Assembly: GCA_002898715.1 (NCBI GenBank)
Contig: BEIA01000001.1
Span: 1,994-65,993, forward strand
Source of the DNA: a bacterium HR24
Lineage (GTDB): Bacteria > Chloroflexota > Dehalococcoidia > SM23-28-2 > HRBIN24
Reading direction: 5' to 3'
Length of the DNA stretch: 64,000 nucleotides
In this document: one piece after another, positions 5,707 to 22,265 of the stretch
How positions within the stretch are numbered: the first letter of the stretch is position 1
Layout: every line of letters starts with the position of its first letter
Program-made: the position numbers and the translations under genes
The notes under the pieces: model-generated
Database searches by the model: none
Seen by the model: only the letters and a program-made list of their open reading frames with translations
What the model was told of the DNA's origin: nothing

Positions 5707-5783
5707 GCGCCCCAGTAGCTCAGTAGGAAGAGCGGCGGCCTCCTAAGCCGCAGGCCGAGGGTTCGAGTCCCTCCTGGGGCGCC
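5707..5783 (+). tRNA. tRNA-Arg (anticodon CCT)
   Basis: Acceptor stem GCGCCCC/GGGGCGC; D-arm AGCTCAGTAGGAAGAGC; anticodon loop CTCCTAA with stem CGGC/GCCG; T-arm GGTTCGAGTCC. Confidence 0.85.
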
Positions 5784-5856
5784 ACTGCGTTGGCCATCGG
5801 CGGGCGCAGGCGCTATAATGAGGGGTGCGAGCGCCAGCAAAGCGGGGGATGGAGCC

Positions 5857-7720: not shown

Positions 7721-7936
7721 CCCCTTTAGTGCTGCGGTAGGCCTCCACTTCTCAATTCATCTCTAAGGGCGGGGGCCGAGTCAACGCTTCCTCAGGGCGC
7801 CATGGCCTCCTCCCTCCTGGCCACAGGGCCAAAGGACACGCTCCCGAGCAGCGCCGAGAGTCACTCTCCGTCCCTGCCCGAGGACAATATGTCCCGTATG
7901 CGAGGCAGGCTGGGAGGTCACAGGGCCGGCCATCGT

Positions 7937-8979
7937 CTAGGCCATGTAATGGCTCGAGCCCGCCTGCCCCTGGGGAGCAAGGTGCGGGCCCACCTCCCTG
8001 TAGGACCTGCCCGTCCTGAGCATCCAGAAGACGGCCTTGGCGAGCTTCCTTGCCACCGCCACCCTCGCCTTCTGGGTCCCCTTGCCCACCAGGAGCCGCC
8101 GGTAGAACTCCTGCAGGGGCCCAGGCCGCCCCACGGCGCCCGTGCCCGCCTCCACCAGGGCCCACCTGAGGAAGCGGGAGCCCTGCTTGGTGATGGCGCC
8201 GTGCCTTACCGCCCCTCCCGAGGCGTAGGTGGAGGGCACCAGCCCGGCGTAGCTGGCGAGGTGCCTGGCGCTGGGGAAGCGGGAGACGTCCCCTATCTCG
8301 GCCAGCACCAGGAGGGCAAGATAGTAGCCTAGGCCGGGCACGGTGGTGAGCAAGAGGGCCCGCTCGTCCCTCCTGGCCACCTCCCGCACCCTCCCTGCCA
8401 GCAGCTCAAGCTCCTGCCTGAGGGCCGAGAGCAGCCGCAACAGGCCCCCAAGCTCCTCGCCGTAGGGCTCGGGCAGCCTGAGCCCCGCCAGCCACCCGAG
8501 CCCCTTCCTGGAGAAGGGGGTGGGCATGGGCGGCCGCACCGGCAGCCGGTCCAGGAGGGCGTGGATGCGGTCCTTCACCGCCCTCTGCAGGCCCACCAAG
8601 AAGGCCCGGTAGCGCAAAAGCTCCCTCAGGGCCCTCGTCTCCTTGTCGGCCACGTAGGCCCTCGCCACCAGGTCTGCCCGCATCTCCGGGCCAGGATGTG
8701 GGCGTCCGGCCGGTCGCTTCCCCGGCCTGGCCGAGGCTATGGCTCTTGTCTTGTAGGGATGGACGAGGGTCACCTCCAGCCCTGGTCAGAGAGGAGGCCC
8801 ATGGCCCACTCCCAGGCCCTGGTGGCCTCCAGGGCCACCTTGAGCCCTCCGCTCAGGCCCGCAAGGGCCGCAAGCAACCCCTCGGGGCTGCTCTCGGCCC
8901 TCCCCTGCCTCACGGTCCTACCCCTCTCGTCCACCACCGCCAGGTAGGAGTGCCTTCCCCTCAAGGTCCAGGCCCGCAT
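7937..8979 (-). mobile_element. IS110-family transposase gene, split by a frameshift near 8770
   Basis: ORF 8770-8979 is the IS110 N-terminal DEDD domain (YLAVVDERG...LKVALEATRAWEW); ORF 7937-8773 is the C-terminal IS116/IS110/IS902 domain (VPGLGYYLALLVLAEIGDVSRFPSARHLASYAGLVP); the two frames overlap by 4 nt. Confidence 0.75.
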
Positions 8980-9075
8980 AGAACATCTCTCTGGGGCCTC
9001 CTTTCCCTCAGGGTTTCTCTCTTTACCCCCACTGTAGGGCAGGAGGCCCCCGCCCTTATAACATCACGTAACGCG

Positions 9076-10296
9076 CTAACGCAGCGCTTCGCCCGTCTCC
9101 CGCCCCTCGCCACCCACGAGGCGGTCCAGGAGGCGCATGGCCTCCTCGCTGCCGCCCGCCAGCACGTGCGAGTAGACGTCCAGAGTGGTGGACGGCACCC
9201 GATGCCCCAGCAGCTCGGCAACCACCCGCACGCTCACGCCGTGCCCCAGCAGTAGGGATGCCACCAGGTGCCGCAGGTCGTGTACCCGCAGCCCGGCCAT
9301 GCCCAGCCTGGCCGCGGCCTGCCCCAGGTAGTACTGGACCCGGCGGGCGCTCTCCGGCGCCCCGCCCTCCCTCACGAACACATAATCACCGGGGCTGGGC
9401 TCCCGCCCCATCATCTGTCGCCACGCCGCCGCCTGCCGCTCCAGGGCCCGGCAGGCCATGTCCCCGATAGGGATGGTCCTGTCCGAGCCTGCCTTGGCGC
9501 CCCGCTCGTGCACGCCGCCGCTCGTCCGGCTCAGGGTGCGCCTCACCTGGACCAGCCGCCGCTCCAGGTCCACATCCCCCCAGCGCAGCCCCAGCGCCTC
9601 TCCCAACCGCATGCCCGTCGCCGCTATGAGCGCTATCGCCGGCCCCACCGGCGACCCCTCCACCTCCCTGAGCAGCCGCGCCAGGCCCTCCGGCGACGGC
9701 AGCTCGGGCCTGCGCGGCCGGTACACTCCGGGCCTCACCCGAGCGCACGGGTTGTCTGGGAGCAGCCCCATGCTCACTGCATCGTTCAGGGCCTGCCTCA
9801 GCACGGCGTGGATGTTCCTCACCGAACCCTGGCCCAGGCCCCTCTCCCGCGCCCGGAGCAGCACCGCCTGCACGTCCATCGGCGTCAGCTCGCGCAGACG
9901 CAGGTGCCCGATGACCGGCACCAGGTGGTGCTGCACGACGATCCGCTGCCCCTCCACCGTAGCCGGCGCAAGGCCTCCTTCCCGCATCGCCAGCCACCTC
10001 TCCAGATACGCCGCCACCGTCACCCTCCCCGTCCCCCTCGCCTGCCCCAGCCTCCCCTCGTCCCGCCTGCGCAGCAGCTCCGCCCTAACCCGCTGAGCGT
10101 CCTTGTATGTGCCGCGGACGGTCACCCGTATGTACGTCCGCTTCTTCTGGCGCGAGTCGTAGCCCATGTAGACCCGCACGGACCACGAGTTGCTTCCCCG
10201 CTTCTCGATCCCCTCGGGCACGGCCCACCCCCGACGTGCAGCGTGGGTTGTCCACCAGCGCCATCCCGTCACCGGCCCCGCATCTCCTCCTGCCAC
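9076..10296 (-). CDS. int: Tyrosine-type site-specific integrase (phage integrase family)
   Basis: 406 aa; conserved box II/catalytic region HDLRHLVASLLLGHGVSVRVVAELLGH...TLDVYSHV; AP2-like N-terminus; 3' end faces the tRNA-Arg; true start may be an internal Met. Confidence 0.9.
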   Translation of the reverse strand: MAGGDAGPVTGWRWWTTHAARRGWAVPEGIEKRGSNSWSVRVYMGYDSRQKKRTYIRVTVRGTYKDAQRVRAELLRRRDEGRLGQARGTGRVTVAAYLERWLAMREGGLAPATVEGQRIVVQHHLVPVIGHLRLRELTPMDVQAVLLRARERGLGQGSVRNIHAVLRQALNDAVSMGLLPDNPCARVRPGVYRPRRPELPSPEGLARLLREVEGSPVGPAIALIAATGMRLGEALGLRWGDVDLERRLVQVRRTLSRTSGGVHERGAKAGSDRTIPIGDMACRALERQAAAWRQMMGREPSPGDYVFVREGGAPESARRVQYYLGQAAARLGMAGLRVHDLRHLVASLLLGHGVSVRVVAELLGHRVPSTTLDVYSHVLAGGSEEAMRLLDRLVGGEGRETGEALR

Positions 10297-11847: not shown

Positions 11848-12926
11848 CGACCCAGCTGCCCACCGAGCAGCGTGACGCCCCCCAGAGCCCGGCCCCCTGG
11901 CCCATGGCCATCGCCCTCGACGAGATCGAGGCCCAGGCCCGCTACAACGCCATGGTGGCCGACCGCATCGCCGCCGTCATCCGTGACCACATGCAGCCGG
12001 GCGTCCACTACACCTACAAGCTGGGCGAGACCTACTTCCCCAGGCCCGTCCTGCTCGATGCCGGCGTCGCCTACATCATGAGCGTCCTGCGGCTCGTGCC
12101 GCGCCACCACGTGGAGCTCGCCCTGCGCGAGCCGGTGCCCGTCCAGCGCCCCGACGGCAGCACGGAGCACCGCCTGCTCATAAAATACGTCGTTCGGGCA
12201 GAACTGTGGCACATCTCCCCCGACGGCAAGGAGCGGCTGGTGGCCGAAGGGCTAGGCAGCGCCAGCTCTTTCGAGACCCGCCACCTCTACCGCTGGGTGT
12301 CGGACCGGGAGCTACCCGCCGGCGCCGACCCCTCCCGGCTCCCCAGCCGTGGCCAGGGCAGCTCGGCCCGCTACCGGGTCTACAACCCCGACCCCGACGA
12401 CCTGGACAACACCATCCTCAAGATGGCCGCCAAGCGCGCCGAGGCGGACGCCATCCGCCAGCTGCCGGGCGTCCTGGAGGCGTGCGCCCTCCTGCCCGAT
12501 GCCGAGATCCAGGCAGGGGGGCAGCCCCCACGCTCCCCGGCCCCACGCAAGCAGGAGTCACAAGGGGAGGCCCAGAGCGCCCCGTCACAGCCCCCACCCC
12601 GGGCGCAGCCGGGCAGCGCTCCTCGCCTAGCCGCCCCACAACAGGCCCCCACACAGTCGGAGAGGCGGCAGCGCCCCTCCCAGACCGAGGTGACCGAATT
12701 GGCGGCGGAGAGGGCCCTCATAGACATAGCCCACGACCTCTCGCCAGACGTCCCCGTCCACGTCACCATCGCCCGCCTGCTGGGCGTGCCCGAGCCCGAA
12801 AGGGGCAGGGCCGCTATCGTCCGTTGGCTGCAGCAGCACGGCCGCACCTGGCAGGACGCCCTCCAGCAGGTGCGGGAGAAGGTCGCCGCCCAGAGGCCGC
12901 AAGAGGGCCGGGGCGGCGCCAACTGA
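11844..12926 (+). CDS. Putative phage single-strand-annealing protein (ERF/RecT-like), uncertain
   Basis: 360 aa; segment DLDNTILKMAAKRAEADAIRQLPGV resembles the conserved KMAxKRA motif of phage SSAPs; C-terminal half is low-complexity and Pro/Gln-rich; sits among replication genes. Confidence 0.35.
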   Translation: MTTQLPTEQRDAPQSPAPWPMAIALDEIEAQARYNAMVADRIAAVIRDHMQPGVHYTYKLGETYFPRPVLLDAGVAYIMSVLRLVPRHHVELALREPVPVQRPDGSTEHRLLIKYVVRAELWHISPDGKERLVAEGLGSASSFETRHLYRWVSDRELPAGADPSRLPSRGQGSSARYRVYNPDPDDLDNTILKMAAKRAEADAIRQLPGVLEACALLPDAEIQAGGQPPRSPAPRKQESQGEAQSAPSQPPPRAQPGSAPRLAAPQQAPTQSERRQRPSQTEVTELAAERALIDIAHDLSPDVPVHVTIARLLGVPEPERGRAAIVRWLQQHGRTWQDALQQVREKVAAQRPQEGRGGAN

Positions 12927-13081
12927 GGACGGCACGAAGGGGAAAGGAGGTGAACGGGCCGCATTAAATTGAAGGCCTGCGACCACCCCGTTGGCCGCAG
13001 GCCCCCAAAACCTATCCTGAGACCCCTAGCGGCCTCAGGATAGCACAATCCTCGCCCCATGACAAGAGCGGCCCCCGCATC

Positions 13082-14416
13082 ATGCCCTACGCCGCTGCTA
13101 CCTCCGGCAGGCCCGAGATGGACATCTACCGCATCGGCCGCGCCGTCCTCGCCGAGATACCGGTGAACGGGGGCGTCCCGTTGCGCCTCCTGGCCACCAA
13201 CGTCCGCCGCGAGCGCACCGGCATCCACGCCACCCTCCACATCGTCCTGGGCGACCACGAGCTCGCCTGGACCACCTGCAACGTCGAGCGCGACGAGGAG
13301 CGGGGGCGGCTGGCCCGCAAGGCCCACCGCATCCTCAAGAGCGCGCCCGACACGGCCAAGGACTGCCCCGCCGAGCAGGACCTAATCCGCTGGCTGGACG
13401 AGTTCTGTCGCCAGGTCTGGCCCGTCTACACCGAGGCCCTCACGCCCATCCCCCTGGTGCCGGAGCCTGGCCCCCCTTACAACCCCCTCCTCGACCCTCC
13501 CCTCATCATCGAGGAGGGGGGCACCATCCTCTACGGCCCTCCCGGCCGCGGCAAGTCCTACACCGCCCTCGCCCTGGCCGTCGCCGCCGACGCGGGCGTC
13601 CCCCTGGGCCCCATCCGGCCCGTCCGCCCCCTGCGGACGCTGTACGTCAACCTGGAGCGCCCCACTATCAGCATGGCCCGCCGCCTCTATGCCGTGAACG
13701 TCGCCCTGGAGCTCCCGCCCGACCGCCCCCTCCTCATGACGCCCGCCCGGGGCCACACCCTCCACGACCTCCTGTCGGCCATCGAGCACGCCGTCTCCTC
13801 CGAGGGCGTGGAGCTGGTGGTAGTGGACTCCCTCTCTCGCGCAGGCATGGGATCCCTCGTCGAGGACGCCTCCGCCAACAGGGTCATGGACGCCCTCAAC
13901 TCCCTCCACGTCCCCTGGGTCGCCATCGCCCACACGCCCAGGGCCGACGCCACCCACGTCTTCGGCTCCATCATGCTGGATGCCGCCGCCGACATCTGCG
14001 TCCAGGTCATCACCCAGCGCCAGGACCGCTCCCTGGGCGTCGGCCTCAAGGTCACGAAGGCCAACGACATACCACCCCTACCCCGCTTCCCCATCCTCTG
14101 CTACGAGTTCGACGGCGGCGTCCTCGTCTCCATACGCAGGGCGGCGCCGCGGGAGTTCCCCGAGATCGAGGCCGAGCGGCAGCTGCCGCTGCCCGACCTC
14201 ATCGTCGAGACCATCCTCGATCAAGGGCCCATGACCGCTGCCCACCTGGCCGAGCTCCTGGGCTACTCCCGCTCACATGTCGTCAATACCCTCTCGGCCC
14301 TCCAGGCGAAGGGGGCCGTCACCGCCTACCGCTCAGGAAAGGAAGTGCTGTATGCCCTCAGGCAGGACACGCTGCCCCTGGACGGCGAGGAAGGGGAGGG
14401 GGAGGACGAGCTATGA
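13082..14416 (+). CDS. RepA-like replication ATPase (AAA_25 / RecA-fold) with C-terminal winged helix
   Basis: Walker A GTILYGPPGRGKSYTALALA, Walker B ELVVVDSL; resembles plasmid/phage RepA-type replicative helicase-loader proteins; followed immediately by iterons. Confidence 0.65.
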   Translation: MPYAAATSGRPEMDIYRIGRAVLAEIPVNGGVPLRLLATNVRRERTGIHATLHIVLGDHELAWTTCNVERDEERGRLARKAHRILKSAPDTAKDCPAEQDLIRWLDEFCRQVWPVYTEALTPIPLVPEPGPPYNPLLDPPLIIEEGGTILYGPPGRGKSYTALALAVAADAGVPLGPIRPVRPLRTLYVNLERPTISMARRLYAVNVALELPPDRPLLMTPARGHTLHDLLSAIEHAVSSEGVELVVVDSLSRAGMGSLVEDASANRVMDALNSLHVPWVAIAHTPRADATHVFGSIMLDAAADICVQVITQRQDRSLGVGLKVTKANDIPPLPRFPILCYEFDGGVLVSIRRAAPREFPEIEAERQLPLPDLIVETILDQGPMTAAHLAELLGYSRSHVVNTLSALQAKGAVTAYRSGKEVLYALRQDTLPLDGEEGEGEDEL

Positions 14417-14476
14417 TAGACATGCTCTATCACAAAAAGATTGACCTACGGGCAATCTGTCTGATGAAGGCCCCTC

Positions 14477-14637
14477 GCCAACACTTGCGCCAACACTTGC
14501 ACGCAGCCAAGTCGTATTTGGCCGCAGCGCCTCGGGAAGTGTTGGCAGATACAACACTTCCGGAAGTGTTGGTAGATACAACACTTGGGGGCCAACGGCC
14601 GGTCTCCAAATACGGCCGGGGCGCAAGTGTTGGTGGG
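14477..14637. repeat. Iteron-like cluster of 8-mer CAACACTT/AAGTGTTG (putative origin of replication)
   Basis: GCCAACACTTGCGCCAACACTTGC, then two tandem 27-bp units GAAGTGTTGG(C/T)AGATACAACACTT each with an internal inverted repeat, then GCAAGTGTTGG; 8 copies within 160 bp, plus one more at 14945. Confidence 0.6.
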
Positions 14638-14987
14638 GGGCGTCGACCAACAGGTGCATCAACAGTTGCGGTGCCCAAACGGGCGGGCGCAGATATGCCG
14701 AGCGGCAGCGAAACGGCCGCCGGCGCGCTTAATACACTACCGGGTAGCGTAAGCGTACCTCATGCCAAATGGTGTATAAGGGGACGGGACCGGTTAGCCA
14801 TTGCTACCATTGGCCTATTGGGTACGCCTGCCAGGAGAACGGTATGGCTGCTGCCCAGAAGGGAGATGAGAGGGAAGGCGGCGGTCTTTGGCTTACGAGC
14901 TACCATAGGCAACACAACGGCAGGAATAGACTTAGGGGGCCGCCGCCAACACTTGGCCACGGCCCCACAGCGCAAGGAGGTGTCACC

Positions 14988-15701
14988 ATGGCCACTGCTA
15001 TGACGGCTCGATCGCAGACAGGCGTCACGCTGCTCCGGCCCCGGCCGCCGCAGCGCGGGCTGGCGCCTCGCCCTCGCCAGACGCCTCGACCCCCACAAGC
15101 GCGCCGGCCATGCCGCTTCCTCGTGCCGCCCGAGGAGATAGAGCCCTGTCGCGAGCGCCTCATCCCCCTCTTGCGCCGCCTGGGCAGCGTGGCGCCAGGC
15201 AGCATCATCCACCGCTACGGCGCTGCCAACGTGGCAGCGGCCCTCTACTACGTCATCTACCAGCGACAGCGCGGCTACCGGCCCCGGAACGCGGGCGGCC
15301 TCCTTACCTGGCTCCTCAAGGCCTACGATGAGCGCAAGCTGCAGGGATGGCAGCTACGGCGCATCCTCAGGTTCGCTTGGGGCTTCCGCGAGGTGCCATG
15401 GTGGGCCAGGTGCCGCCTCCTCCTCTGGGCCAAGGAGCTACATGCTACCTGGCTGGGCAGGACCGCCTGGCGGCGCCTGCACCGCCTCTACAGCGAAGGC
15501 CTGCTGATGGACATGCTGCACCGCTGCCCGCACCCGGACATCTGGCGCACCATCCGCTACCTCCTGGCCACGTACTACAAGCCGCTGCCGCCGCCGACGC
15601 GGCTCCATACGCTCCTGTCATTGGCCAAGACCTTCCCTGGCAAGGAGGCGGCAGCGCGGCTCGCCGCTTCCCGGGAGCAACGGGTATTCCTCATGCCATG
15701 A
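14988..15701 (+). CDS. Hypothetical protein (Arg/Trp-rich)
   Basis: Start at MATAMTARS preceded by AGGAGG at 14975-14980; no recognisable domain. Confidence 0.4.
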   Translation: MATAMTARSQTGVTLLRPRPPQRGLAPRPRQTPRPPQARRPCRFLVPPEEIEPCRERLIPLLRRLGSVAPGSIIHRYGAANVAAALYYVIYQRQRGYRPRNAGGLLTWLLKAYDERKLQGWQLRRILRFAWGFREVPWWARCRLLLWAKELHATWLGRTAWRRLHRLYSEGLLMDMLHRCPHPDIWRTIRYLLATYYKPLPPPTRLHTLLSLAKTFPGKEAAARLAASREQRVFLMP

Positions 15702-15729
15702 CGTGTGCCACGACGTAGGGAGGCAGAGC

Positions 15730-15981
15730 ATGGACAAGACCCGTCAGGCCGGTGATGGGACGGCCCAGGAGAGGCCGCCAAGACTCCCTGTGCAGGAGCG
15801 CTTTCTCAGCCGCTGCCTGGGGAAGCCCATCGCCATCGAGCTGTCGGCGCCGCATATGGTCCTCGAGGGGGTGCTCCTCGGCTACGACGACTATACGCTG
15901 CTCGTCCGCCTCTCCGCCGAGGAGGGCGAGCAGCCGAAGGAGGTGCTGGTCTTCAAGCATGCCGTCGCCTTCGTCCACTGA
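15730..15981 (+). CDS. Hfq-like Sm-fold RNA chaperone
   Basis: QERFLSRCLGKPIAIELSAPHMVLEGVLLGYDDYTLLVRL...VLVFKHAVAFV matches the Hfq Sm1/Sm2 pattern (FLN..RK...V.I.L.NG..L.G.I..FD.F.vlL....Q.v.YKHAIST); GGGAGG RBS upstream. Confidence 0.6.
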   Translation: MDKTRQAGDGTAQERPPRLPVQERFLSRCLGKPIAIELSAPHMVLEGVLLGYDDYTLLVRLSAEEGEQPKEVLVFKHAVAFVH

Positions 15982-16213
15982 CCCCAGGCCGCGGGGCCAC
16001 CTCCTGCGTGCCGCCCTGCAGGCCCGCAAGGGCAGGCCGGTGGCGGTCGTCCTCCGGGACGGGCGCGCCCTGGTGGGCATCCTCTCCCGTTTCGAGGGGC
16101 ACCTGGCCTTCTGGCGGCTGGACAGCCTCGTGCTGACGGTGCCGGCCGAGCAAGGGGGCGCCATGACCGTGGCGGTGCCCCTTCGGAAGGTGGCCGCCGT
16201 CGTCGATGGCTGA
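15980..16213 (+). CDS. Second Sm-like segment directly after the hfq-like gene (start codon unclear)
   Basis: LRAALQARKGRPVAVVLRDGRALVGILSRFEGHLAFWRLDSLVL resembles an Sm1 motif; it is in the +1 frame relative to hfq-like and has no obvious ATG/GTG/TTG near its 5' end. Confidence 0.25.
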   Translation, partial: DPRPRGHLLRAALQARKGRPVAVVLRDGRALVGILSRFEGHLAFWRLDSLVLTVPAEQGGAMTVAVPLRKVAAVVDG

Positions 16214-16225
16214 AGGAGGTAGTCG

Positions 16226-16606
16226 ATGGCGCAGGGCCGCTCGCCGGTAGGACATGGGCCGGGGCAGGACGCGTCGCGCCCTCCCCCTGGGTCATTCCTC
16301 CTCCCTGCCCTCGTCCCGTCACCCCTCGTCAGGATGGCCATGAGCATGGGTGCAAGGCCCGCCATCCGCCTTACCCTGCGTGAGACGACCAACGAGGCGA
16401 GCGACCTGGGCCTCCTCCGGTCGGTGGTGGACCTGGTGCATGCTTATCCGGGCAATGACATCCTCCTTCTGACGGTAGTCACCCTGGACGGCGAGCGCCG
16501 TCGCTTCATCTGGCGGGTCCGCGCCTGCCGTGAGCTGCGCTTCCTACTGGCCTCCCTCCTCGCCGCCTGGGCCAGGCCCAGGCCCCACGGCGGCGCGGCG
16601 GGCTAG
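16226..16606 (+). CDS. Hypothetical protein
   Basis: 126-aa ORF, no recognisable motifs; its end overlaps the stop of the convergent RM gene. Confidence 0.25.
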   Translation: MAQGRSPVGHGPGQDASRPPPGSFLLPALVPSPLVRMAMSMGARPAIRLTLRETTNEASDLGLLRSVVDLVHAYPGNDILLLTVVTLDGERRRFIWRVRACRELRFLLASLLAAWARPRPHGGAAG

Positions 16607-19320
16607 GCATCATCCCTGCCGGCATGGGCCTGGCCCTCGGGACCGCCCGCGCCAAGCGCGGCAATGCCCTCGAAGATGCTGGCCTCAGCATCGGCCAGAG
16701 CACGCTCCAGCTTCTGCTTCGCCTCGTCCAGCTCCTGGCGAGCGACACGTACTTGCTGAGCTATGGCACGTTGCTGCTCTAGCGGTGGGACAGGCACCAT
16801 CAGCGATTCGAAATCCACCGGCTGCGTTCTTCGCCGGTTGGAATGCCCGGTGGTGATAGCTCGCAAGGCAGCGCGGAACGTGTTGCTCCGAAGGAGGATG
16901 GTCAGGTAGTCCGGGTCGATCCTGCTGCGCCATTCCTCACGGACCTGGTAGACCGGAAACTCCTGGGTTACGATAGCGCCATCATACTCCTCAGGGACCA
17001 CTGTGATGCAGCCACGCCAGAGGTCGATACGAGAAAAGAGCACATCGCCTGCATGGACACGGTACCAGACGGTGCCTGGACGGAAGTAGCTGCCCTGCCA
17101 GGCAGGGGGGTTGATGCCCTTGCCGGCCTCCCTCCGGCGCAGAGTGCCATCCTGGCCCAGCTCGATAGTTACAAATTCCTGCTCAGGCTCTTGCCAGGGT
17201 CGCACTACTTCGCGCCTTCGGACCAGGATTTCGCCCAGGCGGGCCATGGTAGTCCTGCCGGCATGAGTCAGGCTACGCAGCCTGAATAGGTGATACTTAG
17301 CGTCCAGCCTCCGGGAGGGGTGTGCCTGGAAGATATCAACAATGGAGGCACAAGCGGTGCGTGGCGTGTCGCTCCCCGCGAAGGAGCTGGGATTGCGGAG
17401 GAACACCCGCCATTGACCCAACACCGTGCCCGGGTCATCTTCGCAAATGTGGCCGTCGTCGGTGAGCGAGTACAGGTCATTGCGGGGAGATCGCTGCCCG
17501 GCCGGCAAGTACCCGATATGCTCGGCCTCTGCGAAGAAGACGGGATAATTTAGCGCTGCCAGTCCGGCATGAATAGCGGCATCTTCGGGCAGGATATGGC
17601 TACTGGAGGTGTCCAGCAGGCATCTGTTGTAGGCCTCCTGGAACCGAGCATGCTCCTCGTCGGTGAACTTTTGTAGGAAGATAAGGCTAGTCTTGTTCTG
17701 AGCGCCAGCTTTCCTGAAGGCATAGTCCGGTAGCGAGACGACTGCCAAGACCTTCGTCCGTTTCAGGATGAGGCGGCGGGCAGCCGGGCAGCCGCTCGCT
17801 TCGCTCGCGTTGTTGAGAAGGCCGTCGGGGACTACCATGCCAAGCCGTCCCCCAGGGGCAAGGAAGTCGATAGCCCGTTCCAGAATGACGATCTCGCTGC
17901 TGATCCTGCTCCTGCCTCTGGCTACGGCAAAGTCGCTCAGCGACGCATCACCCAGACGGTCACGGTCTCCCTCCCGGACCTCGTCGCCGAACGGCGGATT
18001 GCCCATTACGACTGTGAAGCGTCCTAGGTCGAGCCCGGCGACGGAAAAATGCCTATCGAGACAGCTGTGCCCCACCTCGACATTAAGGTGGCCATCCTTA
18101 TGCAATAAGAGGTTGGTCTTACAGATGCGCCCAACTACCTCATGTATCTCTATGGCATAGACATGTTTCTGGGCGAATTCGATCTTGAGGCGCTCGATGT
18201 CAGGTCTCCCGACGAAGCTGGTATCGATCCGCCGCCATACCTGCAAGAGGGCCTCCAGCAAGAAGCCGCCGCTGCCGGCCGTTGGGTCCAGGACAAAATC
18301 CTTGTGTGTCGGTGCCAGCAAGGCACATACGAAGCGACAGATCTCGCGACGGGTGAAATACTGCCCAAGCTGCCCGCGAAAGATTTCCCCGAAGAAGCTC
18401 TCGAAGGCCGTGCCCAGCGCATCGACTTCGCACATAGTGAAGCCGATGTCCTGCACCAGCTGGACTACCTGCCATATCGTTTCGTCTGGCAGGTGGATCT
18501 CCGGATCGGCGAATATGGTGGGGTCCTGTCGTATGGCCTCTCTGTAGCACTGGCGAATGCGCCTGGCTACATCCGTGGGAGGCTCACCAACGCCTGCCTG
18601 GAACTGACGGGGATCACCATTGGGAGTGAAGCGCTCGTCCCACACCTTGGCAAACATGAGCTTGCTCCACTCGTCGAAGGCTGTAAGCGGGTCCCTTCTC
18701 CCGCCAGCCCAGATGCGTCCGTGGGCCTGCCTGATGCGGGCTGAAAGGGTGCGAGCGTCTACGGGGCGAACATCTTGCGTCGAGCCGGCAACGAGGCGCA
18801 AGCGTACGGCTGTGCCAAATGCCTTAGGCAGAGAACGGCGATCCCCTAGTACATATTCCTCGATGTCATCCGGGCTGGGACAGTTATCGACGTCAATAAG
18901 GACCGATGTGTGGCCGTCGTCCACCAAAAGGTACCGGGCCCGGAGGCTAGCGGCATAACCGAAACCCTGTCGCAATCCCTCCTCCCACTCGCTGGAGCTG
19001 CAATTCTCGCGTTTGGCCTCTACCACTAGGTAAGGCCTTCTGGCGTTATACAAGACAATGTCCGCACGCTCATCGCCCTTCTTGGGAACACGCACCTCGA
19101 CTGCGATGTCCCAAGGGTTGTACCCCCGATCGAGCACCAGCCAGGCATAGAGGCGTGCTCGAACACGCTCCTCGGGATGACCATAGTCACAGGTACGGGC
19201 CTGGCGACAATGGTAGGTTATGAGGGCACCTTGCTCGTCCAGGGAAAGGTAGCGCAGCGTCTCAGCCCGAGAGACGACAGAGTCGTCCAAAAGGGGGCCC
19301 GTGAACCTGAGCCGGGCCAT
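16603..19320 (-). CDS. Type IIG/IIL restriction-modification enzyme (fused PD-(D/E)xK nuclease + gamma-class N6-adenine methyltransferase + target-recognition domain), MmeI-like
   Basis: N-term nuclease motif DIVLYNARRPYLVVEAKREN; MTase motif I VLDPTAGSGGFLLEA and motif IV NPPFG; C-terminal HsdS-like TRD; start taken at MARLRFTG (19320) with AGGAG RBS, though the ORF extends to 19569. Confidence 0.8.
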   Translation of the reverse strand: MARLRFTGPLLDDSVVSRAETLRYLSLDEQGALITYHCRQARTCDYGHPEERVRARLYAWLVLDRGYNPWDIAVEVRVPKKGDERADIVLYNARRPYLVVEAKRENCSSSEWEEGLRQGFGYAASLRARYLLVDDGHTSVLIDVDNCPSPDDIEEYVLGDRRSLPKAFGTAVRLRLVAGSTQDVRPVDARTLSARIRQAHGRIWAGGRRDPLTAFDEWSKLMFAKVWDERFTPNGDPRQFQAGVGEPPTDVARRIRQCYREAIRQDPTIFADPEIHLPDETIWQVVQLVQDIGFTMCEVDALGTAFESFFGEIFRGQLGQYFTRREICRFVCALLAPTHKDFVLDPTAGSGGFLLEALLQVWRRIDTSFVGRPDIERLKIEFAQKHVYAIEIHEVVGRICKTNLLLHKDGHLNVEVGHSCLDRHFSVAGLDLGRFTVVMGNPPFGDEVREGDRDRLGDASLSDFAVARGRSRISSEIVILERAIDFLAPGGRLGMVVPDGLLNNASEASGCPAARRLILKRTKVLAVVSLPDYAFRKAGAQNKTSLIFLQKFTDEEHARFQEAYNRCLLDTSSSHILPEDAAIHAGLAALNYPVFFAEAEHIGYLPAGQRSPRNDLYSLTDDGHICEDDPGTVLGQWRVFLRNPSSFAGSDTPRTACASIVDIFQAHPSRRLDAKYHLFRLRSLTHAGRTTMARLGEILVRRREVVRPWQEPEQEFVTIELGQDGTLRRREAGKGINPPAWQGSYFRPGTVWYRVHAGDVLFSRIDLWRGCITVVPEEYDGAIVTQEFPVYQVREEWRSRIDPDYLTILLRSNTFRAALRAITTGHSNRRRTQPVDFESLMVPVPPLEQQRAIAQQVRVARQELDEAKQKLERALADAEASIFEGIAALGAGGPEGQAHAGRDDA

Positions 19321-19519
19321 ACGAACTCCTGCCCTGGCCAGCAATCGATATCCTGGCAATGATAGTACCTGGACTCTCTCACCCTGACAACAGGGATAAC
19401 CTACAACTAACACCGGCCATCTGGGCCGTGGACGGCCTCCCCGTCGCGCACCGTCCCTGAATCCCCTGCCCACCCCTTTCCTGGCAGCGTTCCCTCTCGC
19501 CGTGCTATATTGACGCTTG

Positions 19520-21187
19520 ATGAGTGTGGCATCGCATCGCTCAAAAGCCTCGCCATCCCTGCCCTCCACCCCTGCCCGGCTGGGCCTGTCCGGGTTCTCG
19601 TCCTGGCGGCCCGGGCAGCGGCAGGTCGTGCAGTCCTTCCTCCAGAGCTCCCGGCCCTACGTGATGCTGGAGGCGCCCACGGGGTCGGGCAAGAGCCTCA
19701 TAGCCGTGGCCGCCGCCAGGGCCATGGGGGCGCGCCTCCTGTACGTCGTCTACACCCGCCAGCTGCAGGAGCAGCTGGCGCGGGACTTCCCGGTGGCCGT
19801 CATCATGGGCCGCAACAACTATCCCACCGCCAACCATCCCTCCCTCACAGCCGAGGCGTGCGAGCTGCGGCCCGGCAGGCGTCACTGCCCCCACTGCTGC
19901 AGCCCGCGCCTGCGCTGCAGCGGCCCGACGCCGGGCTGTGATGCCCCCTCCCGCTGCCCCTACCTCCGCGCCCGCGCCCTTGCCGAGGACGCGGATATGG
20001 TCGTCGCCAACGTGGCCTACCTGCTGCACGACCTGGAGGCGGGAGGAGGCCTCGCCACCGGCCGGCAGCTCCTGGTCATCGACGAGGCGGACGAGCTGCC
20101 GTCGGCCCTCGTGCAGCACCTGACGGTCCACATTACGGCCGATGACCTGGACCTGCTGGGGATGGGCCCGCCTCATGACCCCTCCCTGCCCGACGCCTGG
20201 CAGGGGTGGGCAAGCGAGGCCCTCCGTGCCCTCGACGCCGCCTGCGACCGCCTGTCGGAGCTGCTGGAGGCCGACGACGACCCCTTCGAGAGGGCGGGCC
20301 TTGCCCGGGACCTGCATCGCCTGGAGGCGCTGCAGCCCCGCCTCGAGCGGCTCGCGGCAGGAGGCCGTTCCCCCTGGGTGGCGGCCGTGGAGGACCCCCG
20401 CCGGGGCCCCTTCACCCTGCGGCCCCTCTATCCGGCGGCGTACGCGAGGGGGCTCCTGTGGGGCAGGACCGAGGGGCGGGTCCTGCTCATGAGCGCCACC
20501 GTCCTGGACCCCGCCGCCCTTGCCCGTGACCTGGGCCTCCCCGAGGGCTCGTGGGAGCGTCTCTCCCTCCCATCACCTATCCCGCCCGAGCGCCGGCCCG
20601 TGGTCTACATGCCCGTGGCGCCCCTTTCCCACACCAACGCCGCCGACACCTGGCCCCTGGCGGTGCGTGCCCTGGACCGCATCCTGGACCGCCACCGGGG
20701 GGAGCGGGGCATCGTCCATACCCAGAGCTACCGCCTCGCCGCCTACGTCATGTCCCACAGCCGCCACAGGCGCCGCCTGCTGGGCCACGAGGACGCGGCC
20801 GGTCGCAGCCGCGCCCTCCGCCGCCATGCCGAGAGCGAGGACGCAGTCCTCATCTCCCCCTCCATGGAGCGGGGGGTGGACTTCGCCGGCGACCGTGCCC
20901 GCTTCGCTGTGGTCCTCAAGGCCCCCTACCCCAACTTGTCGGACCCGTGGGTGGAGGCCCGCCTCCGGGCGCCCGGCGGCCAGGAGTGGTATGCCCGCGA
21001 GACGGTGCGCGCCCTGGTGCAGGCCTGCGGCCGTGTCTGCCGTGGTCCCGACGATTACGGCGTCACCTACATCCTCGATGCCGGGGTGGGCCGCCTGCTG
21101 GCGCGCCACCGGCGCCTCTTCCCCCAGTGGTTCCTCGCTGCCCTCAGGGAGGCGCCTGACGGTGCGGCACTGCCGGAGGTGATCTAG
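19520..21187 (+). CDS. DinG/Rad3-family ATP-dependent DNA helicase
   Basis: Walker A LEAPTGSGKSL, DEAD/H-like box LLVIDEADEL, Cys-rich insertion (CPHCCSPRLRC...CPY), C-terminal helicase_C_2-like region (QACGRVCRG). Confidence 0.75.
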   Translation: MSVASHRSKASPSLPSTPARLGLSGFSSWRPGQRQVVQSFLQSSRPYVMLEAPTGSGKSLIAVAAARAMGARLLYVVYTRQLQEQLARDFPVAVIMGRNNYPTANHPSLTAEACELRPGRRHCPHCCSPRLRCSGPTPGCDAPSRCPYLRARALAEDADMVVANVAYLLHDLEAGGGLATGRQLLVIDEADELPSALVQHLTVHITADDLDLLGMGPPHDPSLPDAWQGWASEALRALDAACDRLSELLEADDDPFERAGLARDLHRLEALQPRLERLAAGGRSPWVAAVEDPRRGPFTLRPLYPAAYARGLLWGRTEGRVLLMSATVLDPAALARDLGLPEGSWERLSLPSPIPPERRPVVYMPVAPLSHTNAADTWPLAVRALDRILDRHRGERGIVHTQSYRLAAYVMSHSRHRRRLLGHEDAAGRSRALRRHAESEDAVLISPSMERGVDFAGDRARFAVVLKAPYPNLSDPWVEARLRAPGGQEWYARETVRALVQACGRVCRGPDDYGVTYILDAGVGRLLARHRRLFPQWFLAALREAPDGAALPEVI

Positions 21188-21188
21188 C

Positions 21189-22265
21189 ATGCCTGCCGTC
21201 CCATCGCTGCTGCTGGTGGACCCCGACGAGGCTGCTCGCGAGGAGACGCGTCGCCTCCTGTCGGTGGCCGGCCTAGCGGTGGTAGCCCATGCCGGCTACG
21301 GGCCCGAGGCCGTGCGGCTCCTGCAGGAGATGCGCCCCGATGCCGTCGTCATGGCGGCAAGGGGCATGCCGCAGCGGGTGGAGGCGATGCTGGAGCGCCT
21401 GCGCCGGGCGGCGCCGGATGTCCCCGTCCTCCTCTACGGCATGCCGTCCTTCGCGGGCCGCGCCATGGCCCTTGGCGCCCGCTCCTGCCTGCCCGACCGC
21501 CCGGGGGATGCCCTGGTGGAGGCCGTGCGCTCCGTTCTGGCGGCGGAAGGGCGCCTCCGCAGCGCCGACGGCGCCCTCCCCGCAGGCGGCGCCGTCCTCG
21601 CCGTCGTGTCGGCCCGTGGCGGCGTGGGCAAGACGACGGTGGCCGCCGGCCTTGCTGCCGCCTTCCACGCGCGGCTGGAGCTCTCGGCCGTCCTCATCGA
21701 CTGCGACCCCTACGGCGGCGCTGCCGCCCTCTTGCCCCACGACCGAGGGGCGCCGGCCGTCCTGCCGCCGTCGGCCCTCGAAGAGGCGCAGCGGCTGGCG
21801 GGCGCCCACGACTGGGTGGTAGTGGACACGGCTGCCGGCCTGCGGGAGGAGGCGCTGCGCGCCCTCGAGCTCTGCGACCTGGCCCTGCTGGTGACGACCC
21901 CGGAGGTGGGGGCCCTCAGGGAGCACGGCCGCGCCATCAGGCAGCTCGCCGACTGGGGCTTCCCGCCGGACCGCCTCCTGGCGGTCCTGGACCGCACCCA
22001 CCCCTCCCATACGGCACCGGCGGCGGAGGTTGCCCGCGCCCTGGACTGGGAGGTGGTCGCCGACATCCCCTACGACCGGCGGCTGCGACGCCTGGCGGGA
22101 GAGGGCGTGACGCCGGTGCTGGCCGCCCCCTCCTCGCCGGCCGCCCGCTCCCTCCTCCGGCTGGCCGCCCGGCTGGCGGGCGTGGGCGACCCTTCCCGCC
22201 GGCGCCGCCTGAGCCTGCCGCCCCTCCTGGCTGCCCTCCTGCGGCGCCGGGGCGGCGCTGTGTGA
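21189..22265 (+). CDS. cpaE: CpaE/TadZ-like pilus-assembly protein (receiver-like N-domain + ParA/MinD-type ATPase)
   Basis: Deviant Walker A VVSARGGVGKTTVAAGLAAA, MinD/ParA-like core, N-terminal pseudo-receiver; heads a cpaF-tadB-tadC operon. Confidence 0.7.
   Translation: MPAVPSLLLVDPDEAAREETRRLLSVAGLAVVAHAGYGPEAVRLLQEMRPDAVVMAARGMPQRVEAMLERLRRAAPDVPVLLYGMPSFAGRAMALGARSCLPDRPGDALVEAVRSVLAAEGRLRSADGALPAGGAVLAVVSARGGVGKTTVAAGLAAAFHARLELSAVLIDCDPYGGAAALLPHDRGAPAVLPPSALEEAQRLAGAHDWVVVDTAAGLREEALRALELCDLALLVTTPEVGALREHGRAIRQLADWGFPPDRLLAVLDRTHPSHTAPAAEVARALDWEVVADIPYDRRLRRLAGEGVTPVLAAPSSPAARSLLRLAARLAGVGDPSRRRRLSLPPLLAALLRRRGGAV

What the first reader, a model, noticed from the sequence alone, without database searches (positions are those of the whole stretch)
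14430..14960. Iteron cluster immediately downstream of the RepA-like AAA_25 gene: candidate vegetative origin
Eight copies of CAACACTT/AAGTGTTG occur within ~160 bp. They include two 27-bp tandem units that are themselves palindromic, and a ninth copy lies at 14945. Iterons flanking a RepA-type initiator are the standard theta/iteron origin arrangement. This would let the integrated element replicate autonomously after excision. The region is otherwise non-coding, so the overlapping ORF 14413-15003 is probably spurious.
Basis: seen in the sequence. Interest (0 to 1): 0.55.

Follow-up and report, generated by a model that had tools for sequence, protein, structure and literature searches.

The report
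Likely replication origin of an ICE
A dense cluster of short repeats just after a helicase gene, inside an integrated conjugative element of a Chloroflexota-type genome, is most likely where that helicase docks through its own DNA-binding tail to start copying the element; the layout recurs in many related elements and phages, but nobody has tested it experimentally.

Summary
The repeat cluster is real. CAACACTT occurs exactly 8 times in the 64 kb window (0.28 expected). Seven copies lie at 14479-14632 in both orientations, one lies at 14947, and two degenerate copies lie at 14647-14668. ORF 14413-15003 is spurious.

In 73 related loci, the 300 bp after this gene holds the locus's densest repeat array in 18 cases (0.55 expected). 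Some relatives are fused to DnaG-type primases. Repeat sequence tracks the winged-helix recognition helix, even where it conflicts with ATPase-core relatedness.

Best reading: an origin bound by an initiator-helicase, working like SaPI Rep/ori or phage P4 alpha but built on an SF4 motor. The host element is a roughly 37 kb integrative conjugative element with a type IV secretion system.

Caveats: no binding or replication was tested. GC skew shows no bidirectional-origin signature. The AT-rich segment and the DnaA-box-like pair are conserved only in close relatives. The array is absent or degenerate in about half of the distant relatives.

Verdict: a new variant of a known kind, of moderate interest.

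The parts
13082..14416 (+). rep gene, 444 aa. It has an N-terminal beta-rich domain (about residues 14-120), an RSF1010-RepA-like RecA-fold helicase core (AAA_25, residues 129-276 and beyond) and a C-terminal MarR/ArsR-like winged helix (about residues 370-426; recognition helix SRSHVVNTLSAL).
14409..14470 (.). Low-stability, relatively AT-rich segment between the rep stop codon and the first iteron. It is a candidate unwinding element and contains the small palindrome GATAGAcatgcTCTATC.
   Evidence: The 40-mer at 14409-14448 has dG -47.8 kcal/mol, against a window mean of -63.8 +/- 3.9. It is the 2nd least stable 40-mer in the 64 kb. It is not conserved in L013.
14476..14500 (+). Tandem pair of iterons, CGCCAACACTTGC x2, 12 bp apart (cores at 14479-14486 and 14491-14498).
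   Evidence: A 12-bp tandem pair recurs in L015, L001, L002, L003 and L004; L018 has 13-bp tandem spacings.
14513..14521 (+). CGTATTTGG motif, with its inverted partner at 14606-14614. It is a second conserved element inside the array.
   Evidence: Read. A related CCGTATTTGG is present in L013 and CCGTATCTGG in L015.
14534..14589 (.). Central block of four iterons arranged as two 27-bp palindromic units, (G)GAAGTGTTGG-yAGATA-CAACACTT(CC). Cores at 14537(-), 14552(+), 14564(-), 14579(+).
   Evidence: The same unit, with the same 15/12/15 spacing, is present in L013 with CGACACTT in place of CAACACTT. It is the 10th least stable 40-mer of the window.
14606..14614 (-). Inverted copy of the CGTATTTGG motif (CCAAATACG on the + strand).
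14622..14634 (-). Seventh exact iteron (core 14625-14632). It is the right arm of the 22-nt inverted repeat that brackets the array (14470-14491 / 14620-14641).
14647..14668 (+). Two degenerate iteron copies 12 bp apart: CCAACAGGTG and TCAACAGTTG.
   Evidence: They align with CCAACACATG and CCGACACTTG in L013, and with the CAACAGTT / CGACAGTT iterons of L001 and L015.
14729..14779 (.). Conserved inverted pair TTAATACAC ... GTGTATAA, resembling two facing DnaA boxes (TTATNCACA with 2 and 1 mismatches). Alternatively, the right arm is a -10-like TATAAG.
   Evidence: The pair is conserved in L012, L013, L015 (which has one perfect TTATACACA) and L001, but not in distant loci.
14936..14966 (+). 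Isolated eighth iteron (core 14947-14954) inside a 14+14 inverted repeat, 41 nt upstream of the start codon of the next gene.
   Evidence: An equivalent single CAACACTT lies 45 nt upstream of the orthologous gene in L013, and at the same 287-bp distance from the array.
14988..15701 (+). Next real gene, 237 aa, no recognised family, with SD AAGGAGG at 14974-14980. It is the first gene of the downstream block of the element.
   Evidence: Orthologues are present in L012, L013, L015 and L001, but not detected in distant loci.
14413..15003 (+). Spurious ORF of 196 aa that overlaps the non-coding region.
   Evidence: GC3 is 0.56. There is no protein-level conservation outside the 98% relative, and it diverges faster than the flanking genes.

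Best explanation
The region 14409-14990 is the cis-acting replication origin of an integrative conjugative element, and the 8-10 bp repeats are binding sites (iterons) for the protein encoded immediately upstream.

That protein is a hexameric-type RecA-fold replicative helicase of the RSF1010 RepA kind that carries its own C-terminal winged-helix DNA-binding domain.

Proposed mechanism, all steps inferred:
1. After excision, winged-helix domains of several protomers dock on the iterons. Tandem sites lie about one helical turn apart, and the array contains oppositely oriented sites.
2. This concentrates and orients helicase subunits on both sides of an easily melted stretch.
3. The duplex opens, and helicase rings assemble on single strands without a separate initiator or loader. 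It is a 'self-loading' initiator-helicase.
4. Priming comes from the host primase in this element. In some relatives it comes from a DnaG-type primase fused to the same polypeptide.

The isolated iteron 41 nt before the next gene may couple Rep occupancy to transcription of the downstream block, or may loop to the array.

Shown here: the repeats, their family-wide linkage to this gene, their co-variation with the recognition helix, and the helicase and winged-helix folds.

Inferred: binding, melting, self-loading and actual origin activity.
For: 1. Non-random and site-specific. All 8 exact copies in the 64 kb window lie in this intergenic region.

2. Purifying selection. Against the 98% relative L012 the intergenic region has 29 substitutions in 571 bp, and none fall in the 64 iteron core positions (P about 0.03).

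3. Family-wide linkage.
- In an unbiased scan of whole loci, the densest 8-mer cluster starts -2 to +68 bp after the rep stop in 8 loci besides the window (L002, L003, L004, L005, L012, L013, L017, L018). The amplified L014 array begins about 130 bp after the stop.
- Across 73 loci, the 300 bp after the gene beats every other 300-bp window of its own locus in 18, against 0.55 expected.
- The neighbouring genes p241, HTH_17, p360 and p237 are not detectable in the distant loci. The helicase is the only shared partner.

4. Specificity co-variation.
- Repeat sequences differ between loci but stay related: CCAACACTTG, CCGACACTTC, TCCGACAGTTG, GGAACACAT, GGCAACACAT, TGCACACTT, TTTACACAT.
- 9 of 9 GGCAA(A/C)A arrays go with an NxxN recognition-helix start, against 0 of 18 others.
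- L042 is 71% identical in the ATPase core to L025 and L029 but has a different helix and a different iteron.

5. The protein is replicative.
- The catalytic residues are invariant.
- Relatives are fused to a DnaG Zn-ribbon and Toprim primase. Among the fused members, L017/L018 (P0026) carry a clear array and L016 (P0048) a weak 4-copy one.

6. Architecture typical of origins.
- Same-orientation neighbours are 10-14 bp apart in 21 of 30 cases, and orientation flips within arrays.
- An AT-rich, low-stability stretch lies next to or inside the arrays.
- A DnaA-box-like pair is conserved in the close clade.

7. Precedent. SaPI Rep helicases use a C-terminal winged helix to bind short iterons located immediately downstream of rep, in opposite orientations around an AT-rich centre, and they self-load (PMC9371898).
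Against: - No experiment. Neither binding nor replication has been shown.
- Cumulative GC skew has no inflection at 14.4-15.0 kb. The + strand is uniformly C-rich from about 8.5 to 46 kb whatever the gene orientation. That fits unidirectional or rolling-circle copying, or ssDNA transfer, better than bidirectional theta replication from this site.
- The AT-rich segment at 14409-14470 is absent from L013.
- The DnaA-box-like sites carry 1-2 mismatches. As a class they are not enriched in the window (4 found, 5.9 expected).
- About half of the more distant relatives show no clear array in the 300 bp after the gene, and L007 shows none.
- No primase is encoded next to rep in this element. The upstream 360-aa protein looks at most Rad52/Sak-like.
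- The ICE also encodes a Replic_Relax protein with its own winged helix (29055-30797), which could not be excluded as a binder.
Confidence: 0.65

Rival explanations
1. The array is mainly a transcriptional operator. The winged helix of the helicase, or another element regulator, binds the repeats to control read-through from rep and/or the promoter of the downstream gene block (p237 onward, leading into the conjugation genes). It would have no role in initiating replication.
For: - A single iteron sits 41 nt before the next gene's start codon in the window, and 45 nt before it in L013.
- In distant loci the array fills the whole 130-200 bp gap up to the next gene's ribosome-binding site, so it must overlap any promoter there.
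- A -10-like TATAAG/TATAAT is conserved at 14776 and its equivalents.
Against: - It does not explain why the DNA-binding domain is fused to a catalytically intact replicative helicase, and in relatives to a primase as well.
- The consensus scan found no sigma-70-type promoter in 14200-15200.
- 7-10 sites, or about 39 in L014, is far more than an operator needs.
- The two roles are not exclusive. Origin-bound initiators often autoregulate.
Confidence: 0.15
2. The array works as single-stranded DNA. Its inverted repeats fold into a large hairpin that serves as a priming or second-strand origin (sso/ssi-like) after conjugative ssDNA transfer or rolling-circle copying. Alternatively, it is a cis-acting transfer locus recognised by a ring ATPase, as Streptomyces TraB recognises the 8-bp repeats of clt.
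For: - ssDNA of 14465-14645 folds at -59.2 kcal/mol, against -32.8 +/- 3.0 for shuffles (z = -8.7).
- Most related arrays also fold better than shuffles, with z from -2 to -5.
- The uniform strand skew across the ICE suggests a single-strand-biased copying or transfer mode.
- The element has a T4SS and a Replic_Relax protein.
- Precedents: TraB-clt, a hexameric ATPase whose C-terminal region recognises direct 8-bp repeats (PMC4447253), and pMEA300 RepAM, which binds 8-bp repeats that can form a hairpin (PMC2440964).
Against: - The strong fold follows automatically from having sites in both orientations. Arrays made mostly of direct repeats (L003, L005, L016, L019) fold weakly, with z from -1 to -2.5.
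- Winged helices read duplex DNA, and the helix-iteron co-variation points to duplex recognition.
- The ATPase has the RepA/DnaB fold, not the FtsK/SpoIIIE fold, and no membrane-translocase features were found.
- The relaxase-like gene lies 15 kb away.
Confidence: 0.08
3. The array is a partition (centromere-like) site or a handcuffing/incompatibility locus for the excised element. It would be bound by a partner of the ParA/CpaE-like ATPase rather than used for initiation.
For: - Centromere sites are also arrays of short repeats in both orientations.
- A ParA/CbiA-family ATPase gene lies downstream in the window (21189-22265) and in L013 and L001.
Against: - The ParA-like protein carries a response-regulator receiver domain and sits beside CpaF/TadB-type genes, so it looks like a pilus/secretion CpaE rather than a partition ATPase.
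- The arrays follow the helicase gene in phage-like loci where no ParA-family gene was called.
- The repeat sequence tracks the helicase's own recognition helix.
Confidence: 0.04

Closest known systems
SaPI (Staphylococcus aureus pathogenicity island) Rep / ori: self-loading initiator-helicases
   Same: - The helicase carries a C-terminal winged-helix domain.
- Short iterons (5-6 bp there, 8-10 bp here) lie immediately downstream of the rep ORF.
- Copies point in opposite directions around an easily melted stretch.
- Iteron sequence is specific to each Rep.
- The element layout has the integrase and a divergent regulator upstream of the replication module (PMC9371898).
   Different: - SaPI Reps are AAA+ SF3/MCM-like 3'-5' helicases. 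This protein is a RecA-fold RSF1010-RepA/DnaB-like (SF4-type) helicase.
- The host element is a roughly 37 kb T4SS-bearing ICE (and, in relatives, phages), not a 15 kb phage satellite.
- The window's origin region is longer (570 bp) and has extra conserved elements: the TTATACAC/GTGTATAA pair and a distal iteron.
IncQ plasmid RSF1010 replicon (RepA helicase, RepB' primase, RepC initiator, oriV)
   Different: - In RSF1010 the iterons (about 20 bp, direct) are bound by a separate protein, RepC, which melts oriV so that RepA can load (PMC8965321).
- Here no RepC-like or RepB'-like protein was found among the scanned neighbours.
- The helicase itself carries the DNA-binding domain.
- The sites are 8-10 bp and occur in both orientations.
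Phage P4 alpha protein and its ori/crr (own knowledge; also the N15/pRN1-type multifunctional Rep proteins)
   Same: One polypeptide combines a motor with a C-terminal winged-helix origin-binding domain that reads 8-bp iterons in direct and inverted orientation. Relatives of the window protein add an N-terminal primase (DnaG Zn-ribbon + Toprim), which gives the full primase-helicase-origin-binder design.
   Different: - P4 alpha uses an SF3 helicase and a different primase type.
- The window protein itself has no primase domain.
- A second cis site like crr is represented here at most by one isolated iteron 287 bp away.
Classical iteron theta replicons (pPS10, F, P1, RK2, R6K; Rep_3-type winged-helix initiators)
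   Same: Repeated initiator-binding sites lie next to the rep gene, with an adjacent AT-rich stretch and possible DnaA boxes. The initiator possibly autoregulates.
   Different: - There the initiator is a dimer/monomer winged-helix protein without an ATPase, and it recruits the host DnaB.
- The iterons are 17-22 bp direct repeats.
- Neither feature is met here.
Streptomyces TraB-clt and pMEA300 RepAM
   Same: A ring ATPase or Rep recognises multiple identical 8-bp repeats located at or just beyond the 3' end of its own gene in an integrative conjugative element (PMC4447253, PMC2440964).
   Different: - TraB is an FtsK/SpoIIIE dsDNA pump acting in transfer.
- RepAM is described as unrelated to known Rep proteins, and its repeats lie inside the gene.
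- The protein here has the RepA/DnaB helicase fold.

Membership tests
Classical iteron-type theta replicon (Rep_3 / WH1-WH2 initiators) | The initiator is a Rep_3-type winged-helix protein without a motor domain. | tested here: not met
   [not shown]
Classical iteron-type theta replicon (Rep_3 / WH1-WH2 initiators) | Several 17-22 bp iterons in direct orientation. | tested here: not met
   The sites are 8-10 bp and occur in both orientations (+,+,-,+,-,+,-).
Classical iteron-type theta replicon (Rep_3 / WH1-WH2 initiators) | An adjacent AT-rich unwinding element and host DnaA boxes. | tested here: inconclusive
   14409-14448 is the 2nd least stable 40-mer of the window but is not conserved in L013. 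The TTATNCACA-like inverted pair at 14729-14779 has 2 and 1 mismatches. It is conserved in 5 close loci only, and the motif is not enriched window-wide.
Initiator-helicase ('self-loading') origins of the SaPI Rep/ori type | A helicase with a C-terminal winged-helix origin-recognition domain. | tested here: met
   [not shown]
Initiator-helicase ('self-loading') origins of the SaPI Rep/ori type | Short iterons immediately downstream of the rep ORF, with copies pointing in opposite directions. | tested here: met
   The first iteron is 63 bp after the stop codon. Arrays start -2 to +68 bp after the stop in 8 further loci (L014's begins about 130 bp after it), and orientation flips within arrays.
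Initiator-helicase ('self-loading') origins of the SaPI Rep/ori type | An AAA+ (SF3/MCM-like) ATPase motor homologous to SaPI Rep. | tested here: not met
   [not shown]
Initiator-helicase ('self-loading') origins of the SaPI Rep/ori type | Sequence-specific, ATP-independent binding and melting of the cognate ori, and replication of an ori+rep construct. | not testable with these tools
   Only indirect support exists: the recognition helix and iteron co-vary.
IncQ / RSF1010-type replicon | A RepA-type hexameric RecA-fold helicase. | tested here: met
   [not shown]
IncQ / RSF1010-type replicon | A separate RepC iteron-binding initiator and a RepB' primase with ssiA/ssiB sites. | tested here: not met
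   None of about 29 neighbouring ORFs scanned with Pfam (the nine nearest also with PHROGs, three with NCBIfam) matches RepC or RepB. No ssi-like structure was found in 14700-14990 (z = +0.29).
P4 alpha-type primase-helicase-origin binder | Primase, helicase and a C-terminal origin-binding winged helix in one polypeptide. | tested here: inconclusive
   The window protein lacks a primase. Family members P0026 and P0048 carry a DnaG Zn-ribbon, with or without Toprim, in front of the same core; L017/L018 (P0026) have a clear downstream array and L016 (P0048) a weak 4-copy one. The motor is not SF3.
Streptomyces TraB-clt dsDNA transfer locus | An FtsK/SpoIIIE-type membrane-associated translocase that recognises the repeats. 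| tested here: not met
   There is no FtsK_SpoIIIE Pfam hit. The fold is RepA/DnaB-like.
Integrative and conjugative element (context of the origin) | A tyrosine integrase plus a type IV secretion/coupling apparatus within one compositionally distinct block. | tested here: met
   Components found:
- Integrase, 9076-10296
- VirD4-like, 31253-34276
- VirB4-like, 35505-37370
- TrbL, 42230-43462
- SLT/M23 hydrolase, 41236-42213
- Replic_Relax, 29055-30797
- T2SSE ATPase, 22324-23757
Strand skew delimits the block at about 8.5-46 kb. The att sites were not identified.

The most novel reading that the evidence does not exclude
These proteins define an uncharacterised class of sequence-specific, self-loading SF4 (RSF1010-RepA/DnaB-fold) initiator-helicases. 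They are widespread in Chloroflexota ICEs and in uncultured phages. A C-terminal winged helix reads an iteron array placed just after the gene, so one polypeptide (or primase-helicase fusion) replaces initiator, loader and helicase. This would be the RecA-fold counterpart of the AAA+ initiator-helicases (SV40 LTag, E1, P4 alpha, SaPI Rep). It would give a theta-like or strand-displacement replicon to a T4SS-type ICE.
Probability: 0.45. Interest if true: 0.65.

Novelty: new variant of a known kind. Interest (0 to 1): 0.5.

Why it matters
If the reading is right, it would matter in four ways.

- It supplies a defined origin and initiator for mobile elements of Chloroflexota (Dehalococcoidia-type MAGs) and their phages. 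No replicons are characterised for this group, so it could be a starting point for genetic tools.
- DnaB/RepA-fold helicases are normally put on DNA by separate initiators and loaders. This would show that such a helicase can acquire origin specificity by fusion to a winged helix, converging on the design of the AAA+ viral initiator-helicases.
- It adds a non-relaxase replication module to the ways ICEs can maintain themselves after excision.
- The clear pairing between recognition helix and iteron across dozens of loci is a ready-made data set for studying how replicon specificity and incompatibility evolve.

Tried and rejected
- **Coding repeat.** Rejected, because ORF 14413-15003 has GC3 of 0.56 and no protein-level conservation.
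- **Structured RNA or known RNA family.** Rfam at E <= 1 finds nothing in 14417-14990; the only hit in 12800-16500 is a chance snoRNA match inside rep. The segment 14700-14990 does not fold better than shuffles.
- **Promoter or terminator consensus.** None found in 14200-15200.
- **A second iteron cluster elsewhere in the window (crr-like or handcuffing).** None found. Matches with up to 2 mismatches outside the region are at chance level.
- **Characterised relatives.** tblastn of the protein against PLSDB plasmids and INPHARED phages gave no match at 1e-5. A profile search of PDB sequences gave only Walker-A and wHTH fragments. NCBIfam gave only ArsR-type wHTH hits below cut-off.
- **att sites and exact ICE ends.** No convincing direct repeat was found from the tRNA-Arg (5709-5784), from the integrase-proximal flank, or from 5.6-7.1 kb against 43-47 kb. 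An 11-bp match, ACATCTCTCTG at 8983 and 45892, coincides with the skew boundaries but is no better than chance.
- **Identity of the downstream 237-aa protein.** Only one 90% homologue was retrievable, so no structure was attempted.
- **GC skew as origin evidence.** No inflection at the site.
- **Literature.** Full-text searches found no description of a RepA/SF4-fold helicase with a winged helix and downstream iterons. These searches cover open-access papers only.
Full report
**1. Observation**

The sequence at 14430-14960 was read directly. Exact CAACACTT/AAGTGTTG occurs 8 times in the 64 kb window, and every copy lies in this one intergenic region. Dinucleotide shuffles give 0.28 +/- 0.55.

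- Seven copies lie within 154 bp: 14479+, 14491+, 14537-, 14552+, 14564-, 14579+, 14625-.
- The eighth copy is at 14947+.
- Two degenerate copies, 12 bp apart, lie at 14647 and 14659.

The site extends to about 10 bp, CCAACACTT(G/C).

The two 27-bp units and their palindromic character are real. A 22-nt inverted repeat (14470-14491 / 14620-14641) brackets the array.

**2. The region is non-coding**

- ORF 14413-15003 has GC3 of 0.56, against 0.87-0.91 in neighbouring genes.
- It has no tblastn counterpart in L013, L014, L015 or L001, although every flanking gene does.
- In the 98% relative L012 it is only 90.8% identical at the protein level, against about 98% for the flanking genes.
- The intergenic DNA differs from L012 at 29 of 571 positions with no indels. 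None of the differences falls in the 64 iteron core positions (P about 0.03).
- The real downstream gene starts at ATG 14988, behind AAGGAGG.
- No Rfam family matches the region, there is no consensus promoter or terminator, and 14700-14990 shows no excess RNA/ssDNA structure.

**3. The upstream protein**

Gene 13082-14416 matches Pfam AAA_25 (2.4e-20). It also has sub-threshold MarR/TrmB/Crp-type HTH hits at residues 374-421.

K158, E192, D249 and H284 are invariant in the family alignment. They correspond to the Lys/Glu/Asp/His catalytic set described for RepA-type helicases (PMC8965321).

So 'RepA-like' here means the IncQ helicase. It does not mean the winged-helix initiator of classical iteron plasmids. 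In RSF1010 the iterons are bound by RepC, which opens oriV for RepA (PMC8965321). Here the helicase carries its own winged helix.

Some family members add an N-terminal DnaG-type primase: P0026 has a Zn-ribbon at 7.9e-30, and P0048 has a Zn-ribbon plus Toprim. This fixes the family as replicative.

**4. Context**

The gene order is conserved in metagenomic relatives at 54-98% identity (L012-L015, L001):
- integrase (9076-10296, -)
- 241-aa protein (-)
- HTH_17/excisionase-like protein (+)
- 360-aa protein (+)
- helicase (+)
- a gap of 480-570 bp
- 237-aa protein (+)

Further downstream the window encodes:
- a DinG-like helicase
- a CpaE/ParA-like ATPase
- a T2SSE ATPase and a TadB-like protein
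- a UvrD helicase
- a Replic_Relax protein with a winged helix
- a VirD4-like coupling protein
- a VirB4-like ATPase
- an SLT/M23 hydrolase
- TrbL

This is an integrative conjugative element. The + strand is uniformly C-rich from about 8.5 to 46 kb regardless of gene orientation, and the flanks are neutral. That delimits an element of about 37 kb. The att sites could not be found. Genome-collection hits place the family in Dehalococcoidia/Chloroflexota MAGs.

**5. Comparative test of the repeats**

This is the main evidence.

*Presence of arrays.* A cluster of short repeats in both orientations directly follows the homologous gene in most of the first 11 loci with a true homologue (L001-L007, L012-L015). 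The repeat sequence differs from locus to locus:

| Locus | Repeat | Copies |
|---|---|---|
| L013 | CGACACTT | 7-8 |
| L015 | TCCGACAGTTG | 3 |
| L014 | TCCGACAGTTG | about 39 |
| L001 | CAACAGTT | 3 |
| L002 | GGAACACAT | 6-9 |
| L003 | GGCAAAACAT | 4-6 |
| L004, L017, L018 | GGCAACACAT | 6-10 |
| L005 | TGCACAC(T/A)T | about 9 |
| L016 | TTTACACAT | 4, around an AT-rich palindrome |
| L019 | ACTGTGAA | 3-4 |

In L014, a 54-bp (-,+,+) unit is amplified about 15-fold.

*Unbiased scans.* An unbiased scan of whole loci puts the densest 8-mer cluster -2 to +68 bp after the stop codon in the window and 8 other loci (L002-L005, L012, L013, L017, L018). In L014 the amplified array begins about 130 bp after the stop. 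With 62 additional loci from viral contigs, the 300 bp after the gene beats every other 300-bp window of its own locus in 18 of 73 loci, against 0.55 expected.

*Limits.* The association is not universal. Roughly half of the distant (31-37% identity) relatives show no clear array there, and L007 has none.

*The shared partner.* The other neighbours (p241, HTH_17, p360, p237) are undetectable in the distant loci. The helicase is the only protein common to the arrays.

**6. Who reads the repeats**

The recognition helix of the winged helix was aligned across 27 loci that have clear arrays.
- All nine GGCAA(A/C)A arrays go with an N-x-x-N helix start (NRSN and variants). None of the 18 others does.
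- CAGTT-type arrays go with RSYV.
- The window and L013 share SRSH and differ by one iteron base.

This is not just phylogeny.
- Core identity is 49% within the GGCAAxA group and 44% to outsiders.
- L042 is 71% identical in the ATPase core to L025 and L029, yet it has a different helix (PRHEVA) and a different iteron (CACACAT).
- L004's nearest core neighbour, L016, has a different helix and a different iteron.

This modular pairing is what a specificity determinant and its site should show.

**7. Architecture**

- Neighbouring copies in the same orientation are 10-14 bp apart in 21 of 30 cases, about one helical turn. A 12-bp tandem pair recurs in most loci.
- Arrays typically start with copies in one orientation next to the gene and then flip.
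- In the compact distant origins, two sub-clusters flank an AT-rich spacer.
- In the window, the least stable DNA lies between the stop codon and the first iteron. The 40-mer 14409-14448 has dG -47.8 against a mean of -63.8 +/- 3.9, which makes it the 2nd least stable 40-mer in the 64 kb. The central palindromes rank 10th. The AT-rich flank is missing from L013.
- The close clade shares further blocks: a CGTATTTGG inverted pair inside the array; an inverted pair TT(A/T)ATACAC ... GTGTATAA at 14729-14779, resembling facing DnaA boxes (one perfect TTATACACA in L015, otherwise 1-2 mismatches); and a single iteron 41-45 nt before the next gene, at an identical 287-bp distance from the array in the window and in L013. 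The DnaA-box reading is only a lead, because the right arm could equally be a -10 element.
- As single-stranded DNA, the array folds into a large branched hairpin (z = -8.7). This follows from the inverted sites and is weaker in arrays made of direct repeats.

**8. Interpretation**

The best-supported explanation is an origin of replication recognised by an initiator-helicase. Winged helices of several protomers dock on phased, oppositely oriented iterons, the adjacent weak duplex opens, and RepA-type rings assemble without a separate initiator or loader. Priming would come from the host, or from the fused primase in relatives.

The closest functional precedent is the SaPI Rep/ori system. There the helicase has a C-terminal winged helix, 6-12 short iterons lie immediately downstream of rep in opposite orientations around an AT-rich centre, and the helicase self-loads (PMC9371898). 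Phage P4 alpha is a second precedent (own knowledge).

It is not a member of those families, because their motors are AAA+ SF3/MCM-like and this one is RecA-fold. Nor is it a classical iteron theta replicon or an IncQ replicon, since it lacks a Rep_3-type initiator, a RepC or RepB', and long direct iterons.

I put about 0.8 on the repeats being binding sites of the adjacent protein, and about 0.65 on the region being a functional origin.

**9. Rivals and caveats**

- A purely regulatory operator (0.15) is compatible with the promoter-proximal iteron. It does not explain the fusion to an intact helicase and primase, and it is not exclusive of an origin.
- A single-strand hairpin origin or transfer locus (0.08) is suggested by the strong ssDNA fold, by the uniform strand skew, and by TraB-clt and RepAM precedents (PMC4447253, PMC2440964). 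It fits poorly with duplex-reading winged helices and with the direct-repeat arrays.
- A partition site (0.04) is unlikely.
- The main weaknesses of the origin reading are as follows. Nothing has been tested experimentally. GC skew shows no bidirectional signature at the site. The AT-rich and DnaA-like elements are not conserved beyond close relatives. The element encodes no primase. A second winged-helix protein (Replic_Relax) could not be excluded as a binder.

**10. Novelty**

No relative was found in PLSDB plasmids or INPHARED phages. There is no close solved structure by sequence. Open-access literature searches found no description of a RepA/SF4-fold helicase with a winged helix and downstream iterons.

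The kind of thing is well known: an iteron origin 3' of an initiator-helicase gene in an integrative element. The motor class and the host lineage are new. I rate it a new variant of a known kind, with interest 0.5.

Noticed in passing
window 8500-46000: The finding sits in an integrative conjugative element of about 37 kb. It has a tyrosine integrase (9076-10296), a VirD4-like protein (31253-34276), a VirB4-like protein (35505-37370), TrbL (42230-43462), an SLT/M23 hydrolase (41236-42213), a Replic_Relax+wHTH protein (29055-30797), a UvrD helicase, and T2SSE/TadB-like and CpaE-like genes. The + strand is uniformly C-rich across the whole block regardless of gene orientation, while the flanks are neutral. 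This suggests a strand-asymmetric copying or transfer mode.
   Followed up: partly
window 16603-19569 (-): A 988-aa fused restriction-modification enzyme (N6_Mtase, HSDR_N, Eco57I-like domains) of lower GC (0.59-0.61) lies exactly between the p126 and DinG-like genes. Those two genes are adjacent in the syntenic loci L013 and L001. It looks like a defence cargo inserted into the ICE backbone.
   Followed up: partly
window 6980-9099: About 2.1 kb, including an IS110-family transposase gene (7937-8773, -), is present in the window but absent from the 98% relative L012. In L012, the sequence matching window 6643-6980 lies directly beside the integrase gene. This looks like an IS insertion near the left end of the element.
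   Followed up: partly
window 6640-6900: A second set of short repeats lies in the segment that is integrase-proximal in L012 and L014: GAAACAG about 5 times and GGTCATCAAA twice. These may be arm-type recombinase or excisionase sites of the attachment region. The tRNA-Arg(CCT) at 5709-5784 lies 0.9 kb to the left, but no att repeat was found.
   Followed up: partly
window 45150-45600: A direct repeat of about 110 bp (two copies, each containing ...ACTACTCG(G/T)TTTGACCCTGAAGGC...GGGAGAT...GATTGTACCA...) plus further TGACCCTGA motifs lies in a lower-GC non-coding stretch at the right edge of the skewed block. Its function is unknown. It could be the other attachment arm or small RNA genes.
   Followed up: no
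L014 6180-7070: In this 57% relative the basic iteron unit (one inverted plus two direct TCCGACAGTTG copies, 54 bp) is amplified about 15-fold in tandem over about 900 bp. An automatic annotation called it a 352-aa gene. It is either a real origin expansion or an assembly artefact.
   Followed up: partly
[not shown]
   Followed up: partly
window 15703-16213 (+): Small ORFs after the 237-aa gene give weak Hfq/LSM-domain hits (E 3e-4 and 3e-3, both below the cut-offs). Orthologues are conserved in L012, L013 and L015. They may be Sm-like proteins encoded by the element.
   Followed up: no
IMG/VR loci L021-L082: The helicase-winged-helix family (31-44% identity) is common on 30-46 kb contigs classed as viral. 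The same replication module therefore seems to serve both ICEs and phages of uncultured bacteria, and one iteron specificity (GGCAACAC) recurs in many of them.
   Followed up: partly
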